This document shows positions 3,129-43,378 of a stretch of 64,000 nt of DNA, in pieces. A program made the position numbers and the translations under genes. The notes below the pieces were generated by a model. That model was not told where the DNA came from, did no database searches, and saw only the letters and a program-made list of their open reading frames with translations. Source of the DNA: Ostreococcus lucimarinus (taxonomy: Eukaryota); NCBI GenBank assembly GCA_000092065.1, contig CP000593.1. The stretch is one strand, 5' to 3'. The stretch's first letter is position 1, and each line of letters starts with the position of its first letter.

Positions 3129-5726
3129 CTAGAAATTTGTAGTGTCGGAAACCGCACAGTTTTGTTCGTCGATCCACTTAAACCAACTTCGCCACATCTC
3201 ATTGTTTGACAAAGTTTTGCGATTTCCGAGGACGATCAATCCACGTTTCGCTCGCGTGATTCCCACGTTGAGCCGGCGCGGGTCGGCGACGAAGCCGATG
3301 TCTCCAGACGGGTTGCTTCGCACGGTGCACAAAACGATCACTTCCTTTTCTCTGCCTTGGAATCCATCAACGGAACGTATTTCGAGCTCCTCTATTTTAT
3401 CCTCTTCGGTGTAGTCCAAGTAATTTCGTTTCGGACTTCCTCCTACGCCGTATTCTTCTTGCAACCGTCGAACTTGCGCGGCGTACGGCGAGATGACGCC
3501 GATGTCCCCGGGTCCCGCTAAATCGCCCGCCGCGAGAAGTTTTCTCACCACACCGATGGCCATCTTCGCTTCTCCGACGTTATACAGACTGTTTCCATCG
3601 GGTGCTCGCGATTCAGGGGCGGAGATTTCTACGAAGGCTACTGGAACGTTCGGCGACGGCCAAGCGATACCCGGCACCAACGGACGATCTTGCGGCGTCG
3701 GTACCGATCCTACTTTCCCTTTGTAAAACGCCAGAGACGGAAATTCGGCGATTTGCGGATGCATGCGGTACTGCATGTCTAGCAAAGACACCTTCACCCC
3801 GAGCCTCTCCATGCGCTCAAAGATTGAAACTTGTAAGCCAGCGTCGACGGCGTCACGAGACACCACCGTGGGAGGCAATTGCTTGGAATCACCCACGAGC
3901 ACGGCGCTCAAGGCTTTCGTGAGAGAGATTAACGCTCCTGGTTCGGTGCATTGTGTCGCCTCATCCACGACAGCCACTGGGAACGTGAAGTCCTCCAGTA
4001 ACTCGTCGCCTGCGCCGACGCATGTGGTGCACACGACATCCACAGACTTTAATATGCTCTTCGCAGCCGTCAGTTCCAACTGCGTCGCTTGCTTGCGCTG
4101 GCGAGCAAACGCTGGACCAGATTGTCCTCGGATAGCTTCACGCATGGCCGCCGCTTGACGCCCGAGAGGGTGCAACGCGATTTGAGCATCCAGCGTGAGT
4201 TGCTGAAGCCAAGGTTGCACCTTTGCGGGCGCTCCCACGCGCACGACTCGCAGCGGTCGTCCATCGACGATGAAAGATTCTTTTGCCAGTCCTTCGAGGA
4301 TATTATCCACGGCTACGTTCGACGCAGCGGAAGCGAGAACGATCGGACCCCTTCCTCGCCTCTTTTGGATGGACGCCAGGTGTACGGCAGCACCGATGTA
4401 CGCTATGAGCGTGCGAGTCTTACCCGTACCGGGCGGACCTTGCCAAACCGCGAGCGAAGAGCTTAGCGCGCTTTTCACGGCGACGCGCTGGCTTGGGTTC
4501 AACGGCTCTCGCACTTCCTTCAACGCCATCGCGAGTTGCGGCTTTTGCGCCTTGCCCGCCCAATGCGGCGGCGTCGCCGCCAATTCCTCCAGCGTTCCGT
4601 TTTCATCGGGCACGCCGAGCAAGGCGCGCTGCAAAGTTGCGTACGCCGTGGAAGAACTGTTCTTATCGCTCGCGCGCGTGGACATGGAAGACGCGCCGGA
4701 CATGCCTCCCGGTTCAGAAAATGCGACGAGCGCCGCGAGCGAGCGATCGTGGGCCACCGTGTTCGCGCTCAAATCCACCCTCCATCTCGAGCCTTCGGAC
4801 ACGAGTCGAGAGAGATCATCCTCGTGAATGGCGACGGTGATGAAAAACATCGACCTCAGCGCGACGACGCCCGTGATTCCACCCGCGGCTTCGTGGTCGT
4901 CGCCTTCGCTGAGCTGTACCATGTCTCCAGTCGTGAAGCGATGATACGGCAACTCTTGTCCGAGCGGATTCGCCTCGCTCGCGTCCTTGTAAGGAATCGT
5001 CAAACGCACGAGCGAATCTCGCTGAAGCGTTCCTTCGTACTTCGCGCGCACGCCTAAAATCGCGTATCCCTCCGCGACGAGCCGCTCTCGCGGCCACGTG
5101 TTCAATCGCTCCTCCGCGAGCGCCATCTCTTCCTCGAGCTCGCACTTCAAACCTTTCGCAAACCTCTCCCTGTGCGCGGCGTACCCCAATCGCAGCGCCG
5201 CTCGATTACTCCCTCTCGATCTCGACGACGACGACGCGGACGAAGACGCGTTCCTCGCGTCTCCGTCGAGCAAGTGCGCGTACCGCGCGCCCCCGCTCTC
5301 GCCGCCCGTCGCCCCCAACCGCGCCCACATCTTTTCCCGTTCCTCCGCCGCCTTCCTCGGATCTCTCGCCCCCGCCTTACTGTACCCGATCGTCTTCTCC
5401 GCCCTCTCCGGCGTCGCCGTCAAGTCCCTCACCCTCGTCCGTCGCCGCGCCGGCGCCGCGCGCGTCCCCTCTCCTCCCCTCGTCGTCGCGTCGCCGCGTC
5501 CCGTTCCCTCCACCTTTCGTCGCGCGCGCGCCGCCCGACGTCGCTCGCCCCTCGCGCTCGCGCTCTCCGTCCTCGTCGCCTCCGTCCCGTCGTCGCCATC
5601 GCGCGCGTCGTCGCCCGTCCGTCGTCGTCGTCCCGTCGCCGCGACGCGACCGCCCCGTCCCTTCCCGCGCGCCGTCGTCGTCGCGACGCCGCGACGCGCG
5701 CCATCGCGCGACGCCGCGACGCGCAT
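3129..5726 (-). CDS. UPF1-like superfamily-1 helicase (DNA2/NAM7 family, IGHMBP2/SMUBP-2-like)
   Basis: ATG verified at 5726-5724. Motifs: Walker A GPPGTGKT, motif II VVDEATQ, SVDGFQGREKEVIVLCTVRSN, RRLNVGITRAKRG. The region upstream of the helicase core (LVAEGYAILGV...FTTGDMVQL...GVVA) resembles the IGHMBP2 barrel domain. The first ~190 aa are low complexity, so the true start may be internal. Confidence 0.8.
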   Translation of the reverse strand: MRVAASRDGARRGVATTTARGKGRGGRVAATGRRRRTGDDARDGDDGTEATRTESASARGERRRAARARRKVEGTGRGDATTRGGEGTRAAPARRRTRVRDLTATPERAEKTIGYSKAGARDPRKAAEEREKMWARLGATGGESGGARYAHLLDGDARNASSSASSSSRSRGSNRAALRLGYAAHRERFAKGLKCELEEEMALAEERLNTWPRERLVAEGYAILGVRAKYEGTLQRDSLVRLTIPYKDASEANPLGQELPYHRFTTGDMVQLSEGDDHEAAGGITGVVALRSMFFITVAIHEDDLSRLVSEGSRWRVDLSANTVAHDRSLAALVAFSEPGGMSGASSMSTRASDKNSSSTAYATLQRALLGVPDENGTLEELAATPPHWAGKAQKPQLAMALKEVREPLNPSQRVAVKSALSSSLAVWQGPPGTGKTRTLIAYIGAAVHLASIQKRRGRGPIVLASAASNVAVDNILEGLAKESFIVDGRPLRVVRVGAPAKVQPWLQQLTLDAQIALHPLGRQAAAMREAIRGQSGPAFARQRKQATQLELTAAKSILKSVDVVCTTCVGAGDELLEDFTFPVAVVDEATQCTEPGALISLTKALSAVLVGDSKQLPPTVVSRDAVDAGLQVSIFERMERLGVKVSLLDMQYRMHPQIAEFPSLAFYKGKVGSVPTPQDRPLVPGIAWPSPNVPVAFVEISAPESRAPDGNSLYNVGEAKMAIGVVRKLLAAGDLAGPGDIGVISPYAAQVRRLQEEYGVGGSPKRNYLDYTEEDKIEELEIRSVDGFQGREKEVIVLCTVRSNPSGDIGFVADPRRLNVGITRAKRGLIVLGNRKTLSNNEMWRSWFKWIDEQNCAVSDTTNF

Positions 5727-29431: not shown

Positions 29432-31051
29432 CTAATTGATGGCTGGCGAAAGTTGCGGGTTCGCGAACTTCGGAAGTAAAACGTCGTCGATTTGCTCCGC
29501 CGTGCCCATGTCTCTGACGAATTTCCAGAACGCGACGAAAATGCCGGGAAGTGTTCTGTATGACGAGTAAGGAATGCCCATCTTCGCCGCTTCTTCCGCG
29601 ACAATTTTCGCGATCGCGGGGTAGTGCACAAAGCAAATCGCCGGGAACAGGTGATGCTCGACTTGCAAGTTCAGACCGCCGGTGAAAAAGTTTCCAATCT
29701 TTCCACCCCAGTCAGCGCTAGTCACCAACTGCTGCACGCCCCAATCTCTTTCCCACGCCTCTCCACCGGTATCTTCAGGGAGTTTGGCCTCGGGCACGTT
29801 GTGACTCACCGCGAACGTACACGCGAGGACGACTCCTTGGCACGCCATGAAACCGACGATGCCGGCGACGACGGCGGAAGCCGCGTGGCTCATCAAAGGT
29901 GCAGCCAACAAACCGAAGTGCACAAACTTGCCGATAACTACGGTGGCAAGTTCCCAAGTGGTCGCCCCGTGGAGCTTTGCGCCTTCGGTATCGCGAGTGA
30001 ACAAACCGACGATGTCGCCGACTTGGAACGCCACCTGCAACAACGGAAAGGCCAAGAACATGTACCAGTGCTGGAAGCGGTGGTACCACGCCTTGGGACG
30101 ACGAGCGTCGAAACGCAAGAGAGGCATGGCGGTGTACACGTCTTGATCCATAGCATTGTCGTTGCAGTGAATGTGGTGGCTCACCTGGTGGTGGTATCGC
30201 CACATCAAAGACGAGCCGCCGATGAGATCGTTCGTCAAACCGAGGACGCCGTTGACGGCGGGCGACGGTGACATCGCCCCGTGATTGGCGCAATGCTGAA
30301 TCGTGAGCCCGATCCACGCACCAGCTAAGCCAAGGAGGCAACCCGAGAGAAAGCCCGGGATGGTGGCGTACACACCGTACGCAAACGCGGCGAAAGACAA
30401 AATCGTTATCGTCGCGTGGTCGCCACCCATTCTGTGTTTGTTCTTCCCTTCTTCCGGGAAAAGTTCCTCGCGAACGCGATTGCGGATGTTGTTGTACAGC
30501 GGCGAATCGTTCGGTCTCGGTGACTTCGCCACGGCGTCGACCGGGAACCCCTCGAGCTTGGGTAACATCCTGAAGCGCGCCGTCGCCACCTCTGGTCGCA
30601 AGTGATAGGATTCCATGAGCGCCGTGCAGTCGCGACCGATGGCGAGGTTCAACAACCAGTTCCCGCCCGGATGCTTCTCAAAGAACGGTCCGAGGTCGTA
30701 CGCCACGTCTCGAAACACCGTCCACTTCACCTTTTGCCACTTCTCATCGTTCCACGGATCCTCCATCCCCGGCGCCGCGACGTCCGGGCGCGGCAACCTC
30801 AGCGCCTCGCGTCTCGCCTCCAGGGACATCATCTTCTCCCCCTCCTCGCCCTCGACGCTTCTTTCGACGACCGCGGCGTTCCCTTCGCCCTCGATCGATC
30901 GCGGAACGATCGCATACCTCCCCGATCGCGCGCGCCGCGCGTCCGCGCGCACCGCGCTCGTCGTCGCGCGCGTCGTCGTCGCTCGACGGCGATAATCACA
31001 CCTCGCGCTCGACGTCGTCGTCGTCGCGAACGCGCGCGCGACGGTGCGCAT
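29432..31051 (-). CDS. front-end fatty-acid desaturase with N-terminal cytochrome b5 domain (regiospecificity not assignable by eye)
   Basis: Cytochrome b5 motif: FEKHPGGNW. His boxes: HCANHGA, WRYHHQVSHHIHCN and QVEHHLFP (a Q-type third box, typical of front-end desaturases). The likely start is ATG 31051-31049 (MRTVARAFATTTTSSARC, presequence-like). An upstream in-frame ATG at 31297 is also possible. Confidence 0.85.
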   Translation of the reverse strand: MRTVARAFATTTTSSARCDYRRRATTTRATTSAVRADARRARSGRYAIVPRSIEGEGNAAVVERSVEGEEGEKMMSLEARREALRLPRPDVAAPGMEDPWNDEKWQKVKWTVFRDVAYDLGPFFEKHPGGNWLLNLAIGRDCTALMESYHLRPEVATARFRMLPKLEGFPVDAVAKSPRPNDSPLYNNIRNRVREELFPEEGKNKHRMGGDHATITILSFAAFAYGVYATIPGFLSGCLLGLAGAWIGLTIQHCANHGAMSPSPAVNGVLGLTNDLIGGSSLMWRYHHQVSHHIHCNDNAMDQDVYTAMPLLRFDARRPKAWYHRFQHWYMFLAFPLLQVAFQVGDIVGLFTRDTEGAKLHGATTWELATVVIGKFVHFGLLAAPLMSHAASAVVAGIVGFMACQGVVLACTFAVSHNVPEAKLPEDTGGEAWERDWGVQQLVTSADWGGKIGNFFTGGLNLQVEHHLFPAICFVHYPAIAKIVAEEAAKMGIPYSSYRTLPGIFVAFWKFVRDMGTAEQIDDVLLPKFANPQLSPAIN

Positions 31052-31535
31052 GGCGGGCTCGATCGCTCGGCGCGGATTCGTGGCGTTCGGATCCGTCTCG
31101 GGCGCTTCGCGCGTTCGGGCGTTCGAGCGCTCGCTGTCCCGGACGCGCGCTGTGACGAGCCGACGCGACGACGCCGACGCGACGACGCCGCGCGCGGATC
31201 GGATCGCGTGACGTCGGTCGGGGCGCGTCGGGCGTCGAGGGACTCGTTCTCGAGTCGAGACTCGTCGATGGGATCGGTGTGGTCCGTGTGTATCCATTCA
31301 ATCGCACCATCGGTCGCATCGTCCGATCGCGACCGCTCGCGACCGCTCGCGCTCGCGCTCGAGGCGGACGCGCGGGACGCCGCGGGACGACGACGAGACG
31401 ACGATCCGACGACGCGACGACGCCCGGCACAGCGACGCGCGTCGTCGTCGTCGACGTCGTCGTCGACGAGTCGCGAGCGTCGTCGACGCGCGCGCGTCGT
31501 CGACGCGCGAACGCGACGCGCGCGCCGTCGACGCC

Positions 31536-31673
31536 ATGGCGCTGGATAGGGCGCTCGCGACGCGCGCGCGCGCGAGCGGGGCGTCGACGTCGACGTCGAC
31601 GCGCGACGCGAGCGGACGGCGACCGGGACCCGGCGCGCGAGGACGGCCGGCGAAGGGGCGCGGACGGGGGAAG
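31536..31673 (+). CDS. SGR: candidate first exon (transit-peptide-like) of STAY-GREEN
   Basis: This is the only nearby ATG whose frame reaches a GTGCG-type donor in phase 0 (GGGAAG|gtgcgcgg at 31674). It encodes MALDRALATRARASGASTSTSTRDASGRRPGPGARGRPAKGRGRGK. The model is inferential. Confidence 0.35.
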
Positions 31674-31865
31674 GTGCGCGGCGACCGACGCGACGCGACG
31701 CGCGCGCGACGCGCGTCGATCGGGACGGGACGGGACGTCCGAGGCGCGGTTTTCGCGCGATGGGGGGGGACGGCGACGTCTAAAACCGCGAGCGACGCGC
31801 GAGAAAGGCGCGAGTGCGACTCGATGGAATCGTGACACTGACCGACGGCGATCGCGCGCGCGCAG
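31674..31865 (+). other. candidate SGR intron (192 nt)
   Basis: The acceptor end is well supported: two in-frame TGA codons at 31833 and 31839, then gacactgaccgacggcgatcgcgcgcgcgcag|ACGACG (a CTGAC branch-like motif about 20 nt upstream of CAG). The donor position is tentative. Confidence 0.4.
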
Positions 31866-32507
31866 ACGACGACGAACGCGGTTTTCGACGCCTTGAAGTT
31901 TGACCCGGACAGAGTGTCGGTGGCGTTCGACGCGAGCTCGACGCGGGTGGAACCGGAGTCTTTATTGCAGCGGCGTTACACGCTGACGCACAACGATGTG
32001 ACGAGGAATTTGACGCTCACGGTAGGCGACGCGTTCAACGACGATCAAACGTCGATATGGTACACGAGATTGCTCAGAGACGAGGTGCTCGCGGAGTGGC
32101 GCGAGGACGGCTTGCACGTGTTTTGTCAGGTGAGCGCGAAGGAGGCTTGGTGGATACGATGGGCGGCGCCCCTTCGTTCGGTCGTGTTTCGTCAAAAATT
32201 ACCGTTGGTGTTAGATACGTTGCGTTACGCCGAGAGAGAGCTACTGGCGACGTATCCAGAGTTGTTTGACAGTCCGGTGTACGTCAACTTTGGCTCCGCG
32301 GACGGACCGGGGGACAAGGAGTATTGGGGAGATTTCAGAACGGCTGGATCGGAAGAGACGCGATCGAGTCGAGTGACGTGCGCGGATGGTGCAGGACTGG
32401 ATCCCAGAATAGCAGACAATGTTAGAAACACGATAATCACAGGGCGTGGTTCTCGCGTCGAGGTCGGCGGAGTGATTTTGGAAAACTCCCCAGCGCCTCC
32501 TCGCTAG
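31866..32507 (+). CDS. SGR: STAY-GREEN (SGR) magnesium dechelatase, main exon
   Basis: ...RRYTLTHNDVTRNLTLTVG...WYTRLLRDEVLAEWREDGLHVFCQVS...FRQKLPLVLDTLRYAERELLATYPELFDSPVYVNFGS...EYWG matches the SGR core (RTYTLTHSDITAKLTLAI...RDEVVAEW...LHVHCHIS...CKELPVVLKAF...YPEL). ORF 31893 starts at TTG, and this reading frame contains no ATG. Confidence 0.85.
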   Translation, partial: TTTNAVFDALKFDPDRVSVAFDASSTRVEPESLLQRRYTLTHNDVTRNLTLTVGDAFNDDQTSIWYTRLLRDEVLAEWREDGLHVFCQVSAKEAWWIRWAAPLRSVVFRQKLPLVLDTLRYAERELLATYPELFDSPVYVNFGSADGPGDKEYWGDFRTAGSEETRSSRVTCADGAGLDPRIADNVRNTIITGRGSRVEVGGVILENSPAPPR

Positions 32508-32733
32508 CGAATGCGTTTTGAAGACCACGTCGTCGTCGTGCCGGCGGGCGAGCGACGCGGTCGAGTTTAGGACTTTTTATTACCACCTTTCTCATTAGTA
32601 CTCATCATTCTTCGCACGATTCGAGCGGTGCGAGGAGCCAACGAGAGCTCGCCGACTTCGCAGCCGCTCTTCTGCTCGCCCGACGAGTGACCGCAGACCG
32701 CGCTTCGCACGCGCGTCTCGGTGCGTCGCTACC

Positions 32734-42495: not shown

Positions 42496-43378
42496 ATGAG
42501 CGCGCAGGCGACGCGAGATCAGCTGCGGACGGCGTTCGCGGAGTTAGAGTGCGTCGCGCGATGCGATGGGATGGGATTCGAGCGACGCGAGCGACGCGAC
42601 GAGACGGAATACGCGCGAGGGACGGGACTGACGGAGCGAGCTCGCGACGCGTCGGCGCAGGGACGGATTCAAGCGTAAGGACGTTCTCGAGAGCCGCGAG
42701 ACGTCGGTGTCGAGCGGACACTTGAAAAAGTTGACCAATAAAATGGCGGAGAGTAAAAAGCTGATCAAGGAGTTTGAGAGACGGGCGCTGAGCGAAGGGG
42801 CCATGGACGCGAACGCGTTGGCGGCGGCGAAGAAGGAATACGTGTCGAGGTTGAACAAGTTTGTGCAGATGAAGAAGGAGGCGCAGATTGCGATCGCGGA
42901 GAAACAAGAAGAGAGGAAGAGCGAGGTTGGTAGTCAGGGCGGGGAAGCGAGCACGTCGGGAGGGGTGACGACGTCGACGACGGCTACGTCGACGGCGTTT
43001 ACGTTGCCGGCGTTCCGGCCAAAGCCAAAGGGGGAGATTGTAGAGGATGAGCAGTTGCAACTCATGGAGGCTGGGGATTTGATTGATCACGGTAGGAACG
43101 TCATGGACCAAACGGATAAGAGCATCATGCGAAGCGAAGCGGTGGTTGAGGAGACGATTCAAATAGGGACGCAAACCGCCGAGGCGTTGCGCGGGCAGAC
43201 AAAACAACTGGAGAAAATCGTAGATGATCTCGATGAAATCCACTTTTCGTTGAAAAAGTCGTTTGGCGTGCTGAAGGACATCACCCGTGGGTTAGCGACG
43301 GATAAGTGCATCATGCTCTTGCTCTTTTTGGTCGTCGTCGGCGTAGTTGTGGTCATCATTACGAGGTTCGTGAAGTAG
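42496..43378 (+). CDS. NPSN: NPSN-type (novel plant SNARE) Qb-SNARE, two exons
   Basis: Structure: join(42496..42548, 42661..43378). The spliced N-terminus MSAQATRDQLRTAFAELEDGFKRKDVLESRETSVSSGHLKKLTNKMAESKKLIKEFERR parallels NPSN11 (...FRALSNGFQKLEKIKD...LEELTDKMRDCKSLIKDFDRE). The SNARE motif and tail anchor are VVEETIQIGTQTAEALRGQTKQLEKIVDDLDEIHFSLKKS...ATDKCIMLLLFLVVVGVVVVII. Confidence 0.85.
42549..42660 (+). other. spliceosomal intron of the NPSN SNARE gene (112 nt)
   Basis: GAGTTAGA|gtgcgtcgcgcgatgcg...gggactgacggagcgagctcgcgacgcgtcggcgcag|GGACGGATTC. The phase-2 junction creates GAG (Glu). Confidence 0.8.

What the first reader, a model, noticed from the sequence alone, without database searches (positions are those of the whole stretch)
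31536..31900. STAY-GREEN coding frame contains no ATG, and its start exon is unresolved
The SGR-homologous frame (31866-32507) has no Met codon. The track start is TTG, and two in-frame TGA codons (31833, 31839) lie upstream. A ctgac...gcgcgcag acceptor at 31865 is convincing. My best exon 1 (ATG 31536 to AAG|gtgcgc at 31674, phase 0) would add a 46-aa Arg/Ala/Gly/Ser-rich transit-peptide-like leader, but the donor is weaker than the others in this window. The gene sits head-to-head with a presequence-bearing desaturase.
Basis: inference. Interest (0 to 1): 0.5.

Follow-up and report, generated by a model that had tools for sequence, protein, structure and literature searches.

The report
Two-exon STAY-GREEN gene, already annotated
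The chlorophyll-degrading STAY-GREEN gene of the tiny green alga Ostreococcus lucimarinus lacks an ATG in its main reading frame because its start codon and targeting leader sit in a short first exon, separated by a typical 192-base intron; this matches the existing public gene model, so the finding is correct but ordinary.

Summary
Frame 31866-32507 encodes a full Staygreen domain (Pfam E 4e-37). It contains no Met codon, and in-frame TGA codons lie at 31833 and 31839.

- Exon 1 is ATG 31536 to 31673 (46 codons).
- The intron is 31674-31865 (192 nt, phase 0).
- Exon 2 is 31866-32507.

The spliced 259-aa product is identical, residue for residue, to RefSeq XP_001420948.1 / GenBank ABO99241.1 of Ostreococcus lucimarinus CCE9901. 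The start exon is therefore already resolved in public annotation.

Further support:
- **Splice signals:** donor GTGCGCG matches 6 of 7 positions of the published genus consensus GTGCGTG, and the branch point ACTGAC matches it exactly.
- **Conservation:** the ATG, a phase-0 RAG|GTGC donor, the CTRAC branch point and the YAG acceptor recur in six other Ostreococcus lineages. Intron lengths there are mostly not multiples of three.
- **Spliced sequence:** a public contig (Logan ERR9850558) joins 31673 directly to 31866.
- **Sister-species transcript:** an O. mediterraneus transcriptome protein uses the same ATG and acceptor.
- **Selection:** exon 2 has dN/dS 0.03-0.13, and both catalytic aspartates are present.

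Chloroplast import of the leader is inferred from composition only.

Verdict: a functional, ordinary two-exon gene. It is already known and of low interest.

The parts
31536..31673 (+). Exon 1 of the SGR gene: start codon plus a 46-codon basic leader rich in Ala, Ser, Thr, Gly and Arg (MALDRALATRARASGASTSTSTRDASGRRPGPGARGRPAKGRGRGK). It is the presumed chloroplast transit peptide.
   Evidence: The product of exon 1 plus exon 2 equals XP_001420948.1 exactly. An M(A)LDRA start and a phase-0 end are conserved in L001-L008. Net charge is +10 and A+S+T+G+R make up 78%. Identity to the closest lineage L003 is 81%, with net length preserved.
31674..31865 (+). Spliceosomal intron, 192 nt, phase 0. Donor GTGCGCG is at 31674-31680, branch-point ACTGAC at 31837-31842 (branch A at 31841) and acceptor CAG at 31863-31865. 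It contains the two in-frame TGA codons (31833, 31839).
   Evidence: Sequence read directly. It matches the published O. lucimarinus non-chromosome-2 consensus GTGCGTG / (G)ACTGAC(G) (PMC2483917). The mean intron length in this species is 187-188 bp (PMC2367439). It is precisely absent from contig L010. The acceptor and branch point are conserved in all sister loci.
31866..32507 (+). Exon 2: 213 codons plus TAG. It holds the whole catalytic Staygreen (Mg-dechelatase) domain and a C-terminal tail, and contains no ATG.
   Evidence: Pfam PF12638, E 3.9e-37, profile positions 1-146 of 147. PDB 7Y5Y (bacterial SGR homolog) matches at E 2.2e-25. dN/dS is 0.03-0.13 against six lineages.
31896..32342 (+). 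Staygreen domain proper (residues 11-159 of exon 2). It includes the RRYTLTHNDVT motif and the RDE motif that carry the two catalytic aspartates (D90 and D118 of the 259-aa protein).
   Evidence: Domain limits come from the Pfam match. Columns R82, R83, Y84, T85, T87, H88, D90, T92, R117, D118 and E119 are invariant in an alignment with bacterial homologs whose numbering matches AbSGR-h R26, Y28, T29, T31, H32, D34, T36, R61, D62 and E63. D34 and D62 are essential for activity (PMC8531759).
31052..31535 (.). A 484-nt divergent intergenic region shared with the desaturase gene. It is the presumed bidirectional promoter and holds both 5' UTRs.
   Evidence: It lies between the desaturase ATG (31051, minus strand) and the SGR ATG (31536). 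The head-to-head arrangement recurs in L001, L002, L013 and the Bathycoccus-like L014. The promoter function is inferred.
29432..31051 (-). Neighbouring gene: a cytochrome-b5 fusion ('front-end' type) fatty-acid desaturase of 539 aa with a basic Thr/Arg/Ala-rich N-terminal presequence. It is context only, not part of the SGR gene.
   Evidence: Pfam Cyt-b5 and FA_desaturase. The 539-aa form starting MRTVARAF is in the protein collection.

Best explanation
This is the nuclear STAY-GREEN (SGR, magnesium-dechelatase family) gene of Ostreococcus lucimarinus CCE9901, and it has two exons.

Exon 1 (31536-31673) supplies the AUG and a 46-residue basic leader rich in Ala, Ser, Thr, Gly and Arg. A standard Ostreococcus spliceosomal intron of 192 nt (31674-31865; donor GTGCGCG, branch point ACTGAC, acceptor CAG) is removed in phase 0. 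Exon 2 (31866-32507) encodes the complete catalytic domain.

The missing ATG and the upstream TGA codons follow directly from this structure: the TGAs are intronic, and one of them is part of the branch-point motif.

The 259-aa product most likely enters the chloroplast by means of the leader. There it would remove Mg2+ from chlorophyll a to give pheophytin a, as shown for plant SGR and for a bacterial homolog.

Shown here: the gene structure, identity to the public model, precise intron removal in one public contig, conservation of the structure, purifying selection, and presence of the catalytic residues. Inferred: chloroplast targeting and enzymatic activity.
For: 1. The spliced product is identical over all 259 residues to XP_001420948.1 / ABO99241.1.
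2. Contig L010 (Logan ERR9850558) carries window 31645-31673 joined directly to 31866-32582 at 100% identity, so the intron is removed exactly at the GT..AG boundaries.
3. In six other Ostreococcus lineages (L001, L002, L003, L004-7, L008, L009) the acceptor YAG sits at the same codon, with CTRAC 20-27 nt upstream. No lineage has an ATG in exon 2.
4. Every lineage whose locus reaches that far upstream (all but the short L009) has an upstream ORF starting M(A)LDRA.. (MTPMGS.. in L008). Each ORF ends in a phase-0 RAG|GTGC[GA][CT] donor. Intron lengths are 187, 188, 190, 169, 162 and 172 nt, mostly not multiples of 3, so only splicing keeps the frame.
5. The O. mediterraneus transcriptome-derived protein P0141 (UniRef100_A0A6U0E8P7) and its contigs L011 and L012, compared with genomic L007, show the same ATG and the same acceptor in use.
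6. The published consensus for O. lucimarinus introns outside chromosome 2 is GTGCGTG and GACTGACG. ACTGAC occurs in 87% of EST-confirmed introns (PMC2483917). The mean intron is 187-188 bp (PMC2367439).
7. The Bathycoccus-like homolog (L014) has the leader and the domain in one continuous 370-aa ORF. An N-terminal extension is therefore ancestral to the protein.
8. Exon 2 has dN/dS 0.03-0.13. The Pfam domain is full length, and the catalytic D34 and D62 equivalents are invariant.
9. The leader has net charge +10 and is 78% A/S/T/G/R, compared with -7 and 39% for the mature part.
Against: - The library type of ERR9850558 is unknown. L010 diverges from the window at both ends (5' of 31645 and 3' of 32582), so it is chimeric or comes from a rearranged copy. 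Only its junction is informative.
- The RefSeq model is itself a computational prediction.
- Two junction-specific scans of JGI metagenome contigs found nothing.
- In O. mediterraneus the donor actually used (GAG|GTGAGA) lies 33 nt downstream of the site that aligns with the window's donor. Donor position is therefore not strictly conserved.
- Leader composition is weak evidence for targeting, because GC-rich non-coding DNA of this genome translates to Arg/Ala/Gly-rich peptide in any frame.
- No import predictor or experiment was available.
Confidence: 0.93

Rival explanations
1. There is no first exon. Translation starts at a non-AUG codon inside the SGR frame (TTG 31893, or an ACG at 31866-31874), giving a leaderless protein of about 204-213 aa.
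For: Prokaryote-style gene callers produce exactly such models (TTG or GTG starts) for this gene in many metagenomes: P0001, P0002, P0006, P0135, P0136. Exon 2 alone covers the whole region homologous to the free-standing bacterial enzyme.
Against: The 'M' in the sister models is GTG, placed directly after a conserved YAG acceptor and branch point. The upstream ATG-initiated ORF and its phase-0 donor are conserved across lineages. The junction is observed in L010, and spliced transcripts are observed in O. mediterraneus. Bathycoccus- and Micromonas-like homologs carry contiguous N-terminal extensions of about 80-120 aa. A plastid enzyme without a targeting leader would be unusual (established knowledge of SGR localisation in plants).
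Confidence: 0.03
2. The locus is a decaying or untranscribed pseudogene that has lost its start codon.
For: There is no ATG in 213 codons, and stop codons lie just upstream. One near-identical contig (L013) carries a 290-nt deletion that removes most of exon 1 and nearly all of the intron.
Against: dN/dS is 0.03-0.13 over dS up to about 4. The Pfam domain is full length and the catalytic residues are invariant. A precisely spliced sequence exists. The same architecture is kept in all Ostreococcus lineages examined.
Confidence: 0.01
3. The annotated exon 1 is one of several 5' ends. An alternative upstream exon, alternative donor or trans-joined leader is also used, giving isoforms with another N-terminus.
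For: The 5' 234 nt of L010 do not match this window. They are joined to the last 29 nt of exon 1 after ...AACTACAG. O. mediterraneus uses a donor 33 nt downstream of the aligned site, which shows that donor choice can shift in this gene.
Against: The genomic bases before 31645 are not AG, so there is no canonical internal acceptor there. The 3' end of L010 is also joined to unrelated coding sequence, which points to an assembly or library chimera. In the window, 31674 is the only phase-compatible GT with a consensus-like sequence.
Confidence: 0.05

Closest known systems
RefSeq XP_001420948.1 / GenBank ABO99241.1 (also XP_001422946.1 / ABP01305.1), predicted protein of Ostreococcus lucimarinus CCE9901; UniRef name 'Staygreen protein domain-containing protein'
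   Same: Identical over all 259 residues to the product of exon 1 (31536-31673) plus exon 2 (31866-32507). It is the same gene and the same model.
   Different: Nothing differs at the protein level. The public record names it only 'predicted protein' and gives no functional or targeting annotation.
Ostreococcus mediterraneus SGR (UniRef100_A0A6U0E8P7, transcriptome-derived, 275 aa; P0141)
   Same: 80% identical. It has the same MDRAL.. start, the same acceptor position directly before ..T[SN]AVFDALKFDP, a CTAAC branch point and the same leader-plus-domain layout.
   Different: The donor is GAG|GTGAGA, 33 nt (11 codons) downstream of the site that aligns with the window's donor. Its intron is 129 nt rather than 192 nt, and its leader is 59 aa rather than 46 aa.
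Bacterial SGR homolog AbSGR-h from Anaerolineae (PDB 7Y5Y; PMC8531759)
   Same: It has the same catalytic domain. E is 2.2e-25 over residues 80-204. The residues R26, Y28, T29, T31, H32, D34, T36, R61, D62 and E63 are all conserved.
   Different: The bacterial protein is about 155-160 aa, with no N-terminal leader, no intron and no C-terminal tail. Position D114 (a structural salt bridge) is Glu in the alga.
Land-plant SGR1/NYE1 Mg-dechelatase (Shimoda et al. 2016, as cited in PMC9306834 and PMC8531759)
   Same: It belongs to the same Pfam family. The expected reaction is the same (chlorophyll a to pheophytin a), and the protein is likewise nuclear-encoded with an N-terminal plastid-targeting extension.
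   Different: The algal protein lacks the C-terminal cysteine-rich motif of plant SGR1/2, having a single Cys in its tail (my own knowledge of the motif; sequence). Its physiological role in a unicellular alga is untested.

Membership tests
Staygreen / SGR Mg-dechelatase family (Pfam PF12638) | Full-length match to the Staygreen domain profile above the curated cut-off | tested here: met
   127.8 bits against a cut-off of 27, E 3.9e-37, profile positions 1-146 of 147. PDB 7Y5Y matches at E 2.2e-25.
Staygreen / SGR Mg-dechelatase family (Pfam PF12638) | The two aspartates essential for catalysis (AbSGR-h D34 and D62) and the surrounding R-x-Y-T-x-T-H-x-D-x-T and R-D-E motifs | tested here: met
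   RRYTLTHNDVT and LRDEV are present. These columns are invariant across algal and bacterial homologs. Residue roles are taken from PMC8531759.
Staygreen / SGR Mg-dechelatase family (Pfam PF12638) | Mg-dechelating activity on chlorophyll a | not testable with these tools
   This needs a recombinant-protein assay, as done for AbSGR-h and Arabidopsis SGR.
Staygreen / SGR Mg-dechelatase family (Pfam PF12638) | Gene under purifying selection (a functional member, not a relic) | tested here: met
   Pairwise dN/dS is 0.03-0.13 against six Ostreococcus lineages.
Land-plant SGR1/SGR2 subfamily | C-terminal cysteine-rich motif (several clustered Cys). The definition is from my own knowledge. | tested here: not met
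   The C-terminal 60 residues contain a single Cys (..RVTCADG..). The protein is therefore filed as an algal SGR-family member, not as SGR1/2.
Nuclear-encoded chloroplast protein with a cleavable transit peptide | N-terminal extension beyond the bacterial-type domain that is basic, rich in hydroxylated residues and Ala, and poor in acidic residues | tested here: met
   The 46-aa leader has net charge +10, 20% S+T and 2 acidic residues. Leaders of sister lineages are similar. The extension lies upstream of the point where bacterial proteins begin.
Nuclear-encoded chloroplast protein with a cleavable transit peptide | Predicted or demonstrated import into the plastid | not testable with these tools
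   No TargetP or PredAlgo was available, and no localisation experiment could be done.
Canonical Ostreococcus (non-chromosome-2) spliceosomal intron | GT..AG boundaries with a 5' splice site close to GTGCGTG | tested here: met
   GTGCGCG matches 6 of 7 positions, with C for T at +6, and the intron ends CAG. Consensus from PMC2483917.
Canonical Ostreococcus (non-chromosome-2) spliceosomal intron | ACTGAC branch-point motif a short, constrained distance upstream of the acceptor | tested here: met
   ACTGAC lies at 31837-31842, with 22 nt between the branch A and the AG. The motif occurs in 87% of EST-confirmed introns.
Canonical Ostreococcus (non-chromosome-2) spliceosomal intron | Precise removal from transcripts | tested here: met
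   L010 joins 31673 to 31866 at 100% identity. Caveats: the library type is unknown and the contig is chimeric at both ends. The homologous intron is removed in O. mediterraneus transcriptome contigs.

The most novel reading that the evidence does not exclude
The intron may be a gain specific to the genus Ostreococcus, placed at the seam between the targeting leader and the bacterial-type catalytic domain, with its donor sliding by 33 nt between species.

- Bathycoccus-like and Micromonas-like homologs encode the leader and the domain in one continuous ORF.
- Every Ostreococcus lineage examined has the intron at the same codon.
- O. mediterraneus uses a donor 11 codons downstream of the one used in O. 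lucimarinus.

This would be a small, datable example of intron gain and splice-site migration in an intron-poor, highly streamlined genome.
Probability: 0.45. Interest if true: 0.25.

Novelty: already known. Interest (0 to 1): 0.08.

Why it matters
This result has little biological importance in itself. It confirms that a public gene model is right and explains why the SGR frame lacks an ATG.

Its practical value is as a caution. Prokaryote-style gene callers applied to marine metagenomes routinely truncate this gene at GTG or TTG codons and lose the targeting leader. Many such models are in public databases, and some are labelled "magnesium dechelatase". Users of picoeukaryote metagenome proteins should therefore expect short 5' exons to be missed.

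Tried and rejected
1. **Junction scans.** Two exact-match scans of JGI metagenome contigs found nothing. One targeted the window/L003 lineage (GGACGRGGSRAGACGAMGACGMACGCGGT) and one the L001/L002 lineage (GAGGATCGAGGTGGTGACGARCGCGGTGTT). These give no extra transcript evidence and no evidence against.
2. **Contig look-up of the 259-aa product.** The look-up of encoding contigs has no gene with this exact product on record. The identification therefore rests on the cluster look-up.
3. **My first guess for the O. mediterraneus donor.** I chose AAG|GTGCAT at L007 793 by alignment with the window. This was wrong: the transcriptome protein shows GAG|GTGAGA at 826. I therefore do not claim strict conservation of donor position.
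4. **Non-AUG initiation.** The 'M' of the sister metagenome models looked like an ATG that had been lost here. The DNA shows it is GTG, placed directly after the acceptor, so this was rejected.
5. **Pseudogene.** Rejected on dN/dS and residue conservation.
6. **Source of the 5' 234 nt of L010.** There was no match in the window or in any fetched locus, so this is unresolved.
7. **Literature on Ostreococcus SGR.** No paper in the library discusses it specifically.

Full report
**What is in the sequence.** The window is GC-rich (about 52-67% in 2-kb windows). At 31866-32507 on the plus strand there is an open frame of 213 codons ending in TAG.
- It matches the Pfam Staygreen domain PF12638 over profile positions 1-146 of 147, E 3.9e-37.
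- It contains no ATG. The mechanical ORF list starts it at TTG 31893.
- In-frame TGA codons lie at 31833 and 31839.
- Upstream, an ATG at 31536 (context gacgccATGG) opens the same frame. After 46 codons comes AAG|GTGCGCG, with the intron G at 31674.
- ACTGAC lies at 31837-31842, and ...GCGCGCAG ends at 31865.
- Exon 1 is therefore 31536-31673, and the intron is 31674-31865 (192 nt, phase 0).
- The second TGA is part of the branch-point motif acTGAc.

All statements in the observation are correct.

**Identity of the locus.** I built the spliced product, 46 + 213 = 259 aa, and looked it up by exact sequence.
- It is in the collection as XP_001420948.1 / ABO99241.1, and also as XP_001422946.1 / ABP01305.1, 'predicted protein [Ostreococcus lucimarinus CCE9901]'. 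UniRef names it 'Staygreen protein domain-containing protein'.
- The 204-aa TTG-start form is also in the collection, but only from metagenome and Logan gene calls. This explains the 'track start'.

**Is the intron a typical Ostreococcus intron?** Irimia and Roy (PMC2483917) analysed EST-confirmed O. lucimarinus introns outside chromosome 2.
- They report an atypical, strong 5' splice-site consensus, GTGCGTG.
- They report the branch-point ACTGAC in 87% of these introns, extended to GACTGACG in 66%.
- The donor here is GTGCGCG, matching 6 of 7 positions. The branch point is an exact ACTGAC, with 22 nt between the branch A and the AG.
- The mean intron length in this species is 187-188 bp (PMC2367439). 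This intron is 192 nt.
- A pattern scan of the window found three other candidates that join long open frames: 42549-42660 (+), 56669-56406 (-) and 23948-23641 (-). All have GTGCGT.

**Comparative test.** A protein search with exon 2 returned near-identical and roughly 86%-identical homologs. I fetched their DNA.
- The loci are syntenic where they are long enough: rhodanese, desaturase, SGR, folylpolyglutamate synthase.
- In all of them a YAG acceptor sits at exactly the same codon, directly before [TVA]-x-T-[NSH]-AVFDALKFDP. CTGAC or CTAAC lies 20-27 nt upstream.
- No sister lineage has an ATG in exon 2. The 'M' at the start of the metagenome models P0002 and P0006 is a GTG chosen by a prokaryotic gene caller. 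In L004-L007 the acceptor itself is an in-frame TAG.
- Every lineage with enough upstream sequence has an ATG-initiated ORF. It begins M(A)LDRA[LM].. in five lineages and MTPMGS.. in L008. It runs 46-63 codons and ends in a phase-0 RAG|GTGC[GA][CT].
- The implied introns are 187, 188, 190, 169, 162 and 172 nt. Most are not multiples of three, so the frame between the ATG and the SGR domain is maintained only through splicing.
- Between the window and its closest relative L003, identity is 95% in exon 2, 81% in exon 1 (net length preserved), 70% in the intron and 68% upstream.
- Between two O. mediterraneus-type loci, the only indel (7 nt) falls in the intron.

**Transcript-type evidence.** This comes from two sources.
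- *A spliced contig of this species.* Cluster member P0130 reads ..RPAKGRGRGK|TTTNAVFDAL...
  - Its contig L010 (Logan assembly of ERR9850558) matches window 31645-31673 and then, without a gap, 31866-32582, both at 100% identity.
  - That is precise removal of the intron at its GT..AG boundaries.
  - L010 is unrelated to the window 5' of 31645 and 3' of 32582, and its library type is unknown. I rely only on the junction.
- *A sister-species transcript.* P0141 is a UniProt entry from O. mediterraneus (UniRef100_A0A6U0E8P7). I take it to be transcriptome-derived.
  - Its contigs L011 and L012 match genomic L007 in two blocks (526-828 and 953-1685).
  - These blocks define an intron at 826-954.
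  - The ATG and the acceptor are the homologous ones.
  - The donor is GAG|GTGAGA, 33 nt downstream of the AAG|GTGCAT that aligns with the window's donor.
  - The structure is therefore conserved, but donor position has shifted between species.

**Is the gene functional, and what does it do?**
- Pairwise dN/dS for exon 2 is 0.03-0.13 across lineages whose dS ranges from 0.07 to about 4. This rules out a pseudogene.
- The protein matches the crystallised bacterial homolog (PDB 7Y5Y) at E 2.2e-25.
- In an alignment with bacterial homologs whose numbering coincides with AbSGR-h, these residues are invariant: R82, Y84, T85, T87, H88, D90, T92, R117, D118 and E119. They correspond to AbSGR-h R26, Y28, T29, T31, H32, D34, T36, R61, D62 and E63.
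- D34 and D62 are the residues shown by mutagenesis to be essential for Mg-dechelation (PMC8531759).
- The structural D114 of AbSGR-h is Glu here.
- The bacterial proteins begin at the position aligned with LKFDP. Exon 2 therefore corresponds to the whole free-standing enzyme plus a tail, and exon 1 is purely an N-terminal extension.
- The extension has net charge +10 and is 78% A/S/T/G/R, against -7 and 39% for the mature part. Its composition resembles the presequence of the neighbouring desaturase.
- The Bathycoccus-like homolog (genomic scaffold L014) has a similar, longer leader contiguous with the domain in a single 370-aa ORF. The Micromonas-like homologs have contiguous leaders of about 80 aa.
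- I infer that the leader is a chloroplast transit peptide and that the mature protein converts chlorophyll a to pheophytin a. Neither point could be tested here. Composition is weak evidence in a genome whose GC-rich non-coding DNA also translates to Arg/Ala/Gly-rich peptide.

**Rivals.**
- *Non-AUG initiation inside exon 2.* This is what prokaryotic callers assume. It is contradicted by the conserved acceptor and branch point, the conserved upstream ORF and donor phase, the observed junction, and the ancestral N-terminal extension.
- *Pseudogene.* This is contradicted by the selection analysis and residue conservation.
- *An additional alternative 5' end.* This cannot be excluded because of the unexplained 5' part of L010. 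However, there is no canonical acceptor at that point in the genome, and the contig is chimeric at its 3' end too.

**Comparison with what is known, and verdict.** The locus is a member of the SGR/Staygreen family. The domain, the catalytic residues and purifying selection were tested and met; activity is untestable here. It lacks the Cys-rich C-terminal motif of land-plant SGR1/2 (my own knowledge of that motif), so it is an algal-type SGR. The intron meets every tested criterion of the canonical non-chromosome-2 Ostreococcus intron. The exact gene model is already public. The finding is a correct piece of ab initio gene modelling, not a discovery.

Three things remain mildly interesting:
- the apparent restriction of the intron to Ostreococcus;
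- the 33-nt donor shift in O. mediterraneus;
- a near-identical contig with a 290-nt deletion that would disable the annotated start.

Noticed in passing
L013 nt ~3150-3160 (= window ~31563/31574 to 31852/31863): A Logan contig from SRR31183261 is 99.4-99.9% identical to the window over 6.8 kb and syntenic with it. It lacks 290 nt between two 11-nt CGCGCGCGCGC direct repeats. The gap removes exon 1 from about codon 10 and nearly all of the intron, and it puts the ATG out of frame with the SGR domain. It could be a natural or laboratory deletion allele, or a reverse-transcriptase or sequencing artefact at the repeat.
   Followed up: partly
L010 nt 1-234 and 981-1063: The contig that carries the exact spliced junction is joined at both ends to sequence absent from the window. 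The 5' part ends ...AACTACAG and itself contains a consensus GTGCGTG. The 3' part looks like the C-terminus of another enzyme. It is probably an assembly or library chimera, but its origin is unexplained.
   Followed up: partly
L007 793 versus 826 (O. mediterraneus-type genomic locus); L011/L012: The transcript-verified donor in O. mediterraneus is GAG|GTGAGA. It lies 33 nt downstream of the AAG|GTGCAT site that aligns with the O. lucimarinus donor. The splice donor has therefore migrated by 11 codons between congeners, lengthening the leader to 59 aa.
   Followed up: yes
L014 2501-3613 (Bathycoccus-like Tara scaffold); P0021/P0024/P0034 (Micromonas-like): Homologs outside Ostreococcus encode the leader and the SGR domain in one uninterrupted ORF. 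The intron therefore appears to be specific to Ostreococcus. The taxonomic labels of these metagenome loci are my inference from similarity and composition.
   Followed up: partly
window 29432-31535; L001, L002, L013, L014: The head-to-head pairing of SGR with a presequence-bearing cytochrome-b5 desaturase is conserved across Ostreococcus lineages and in the Bathycoccus-like scaffold. This suggests a long-lived shared divergent promoter.
   Followed up: partly
protein cluster (P0121): The identical 259-aa protein has two RefSeq/GenBank accession pairs (XP_001420948.1 / ABO99241.1 and XP_001422946.1 / ABP01305.1) on two contigs. This fits the reported chromosome 21 of O. lucimarinus, said to be built from duplicated segments of chromosomes 9 and 13 (PMC2367439). 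The link to chromosome 21 is my inference.
   Followed up: no
P0001, P0002, P0005-P0007, P0135-P0148: Dozens of public metagenome gene calls for this gene are truncated at GTG, TTG or internal codons, or read through the intron. Some carry the JGI name 'magnesium dechelatase'. None includes the true first exon, which is a systematic artefact of prokaryotic gene callers on picoeukaryote DNA.
   Followed up: yes
window 42549-42660 (+), 56669-56406 (-), 23948-23641 (-): Three further candidate canonical introns (GTGCGT..ACT[GA]AC..CAG) join long open frames in phases 2, 1 and 2. They were not verified against gene models.
   Followed up: partly
window 31268-31549 (+): An out-of-frame ATG lies 268 nt upstream of the SGR start. 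It opens a 93-codon frame that ends at TAG 31547-31549, overlapping the SGR ATG. It would act as an upstream ORF only if the 5' UTR reaches that far, and the transcription start is unknown.
   Followed up: no
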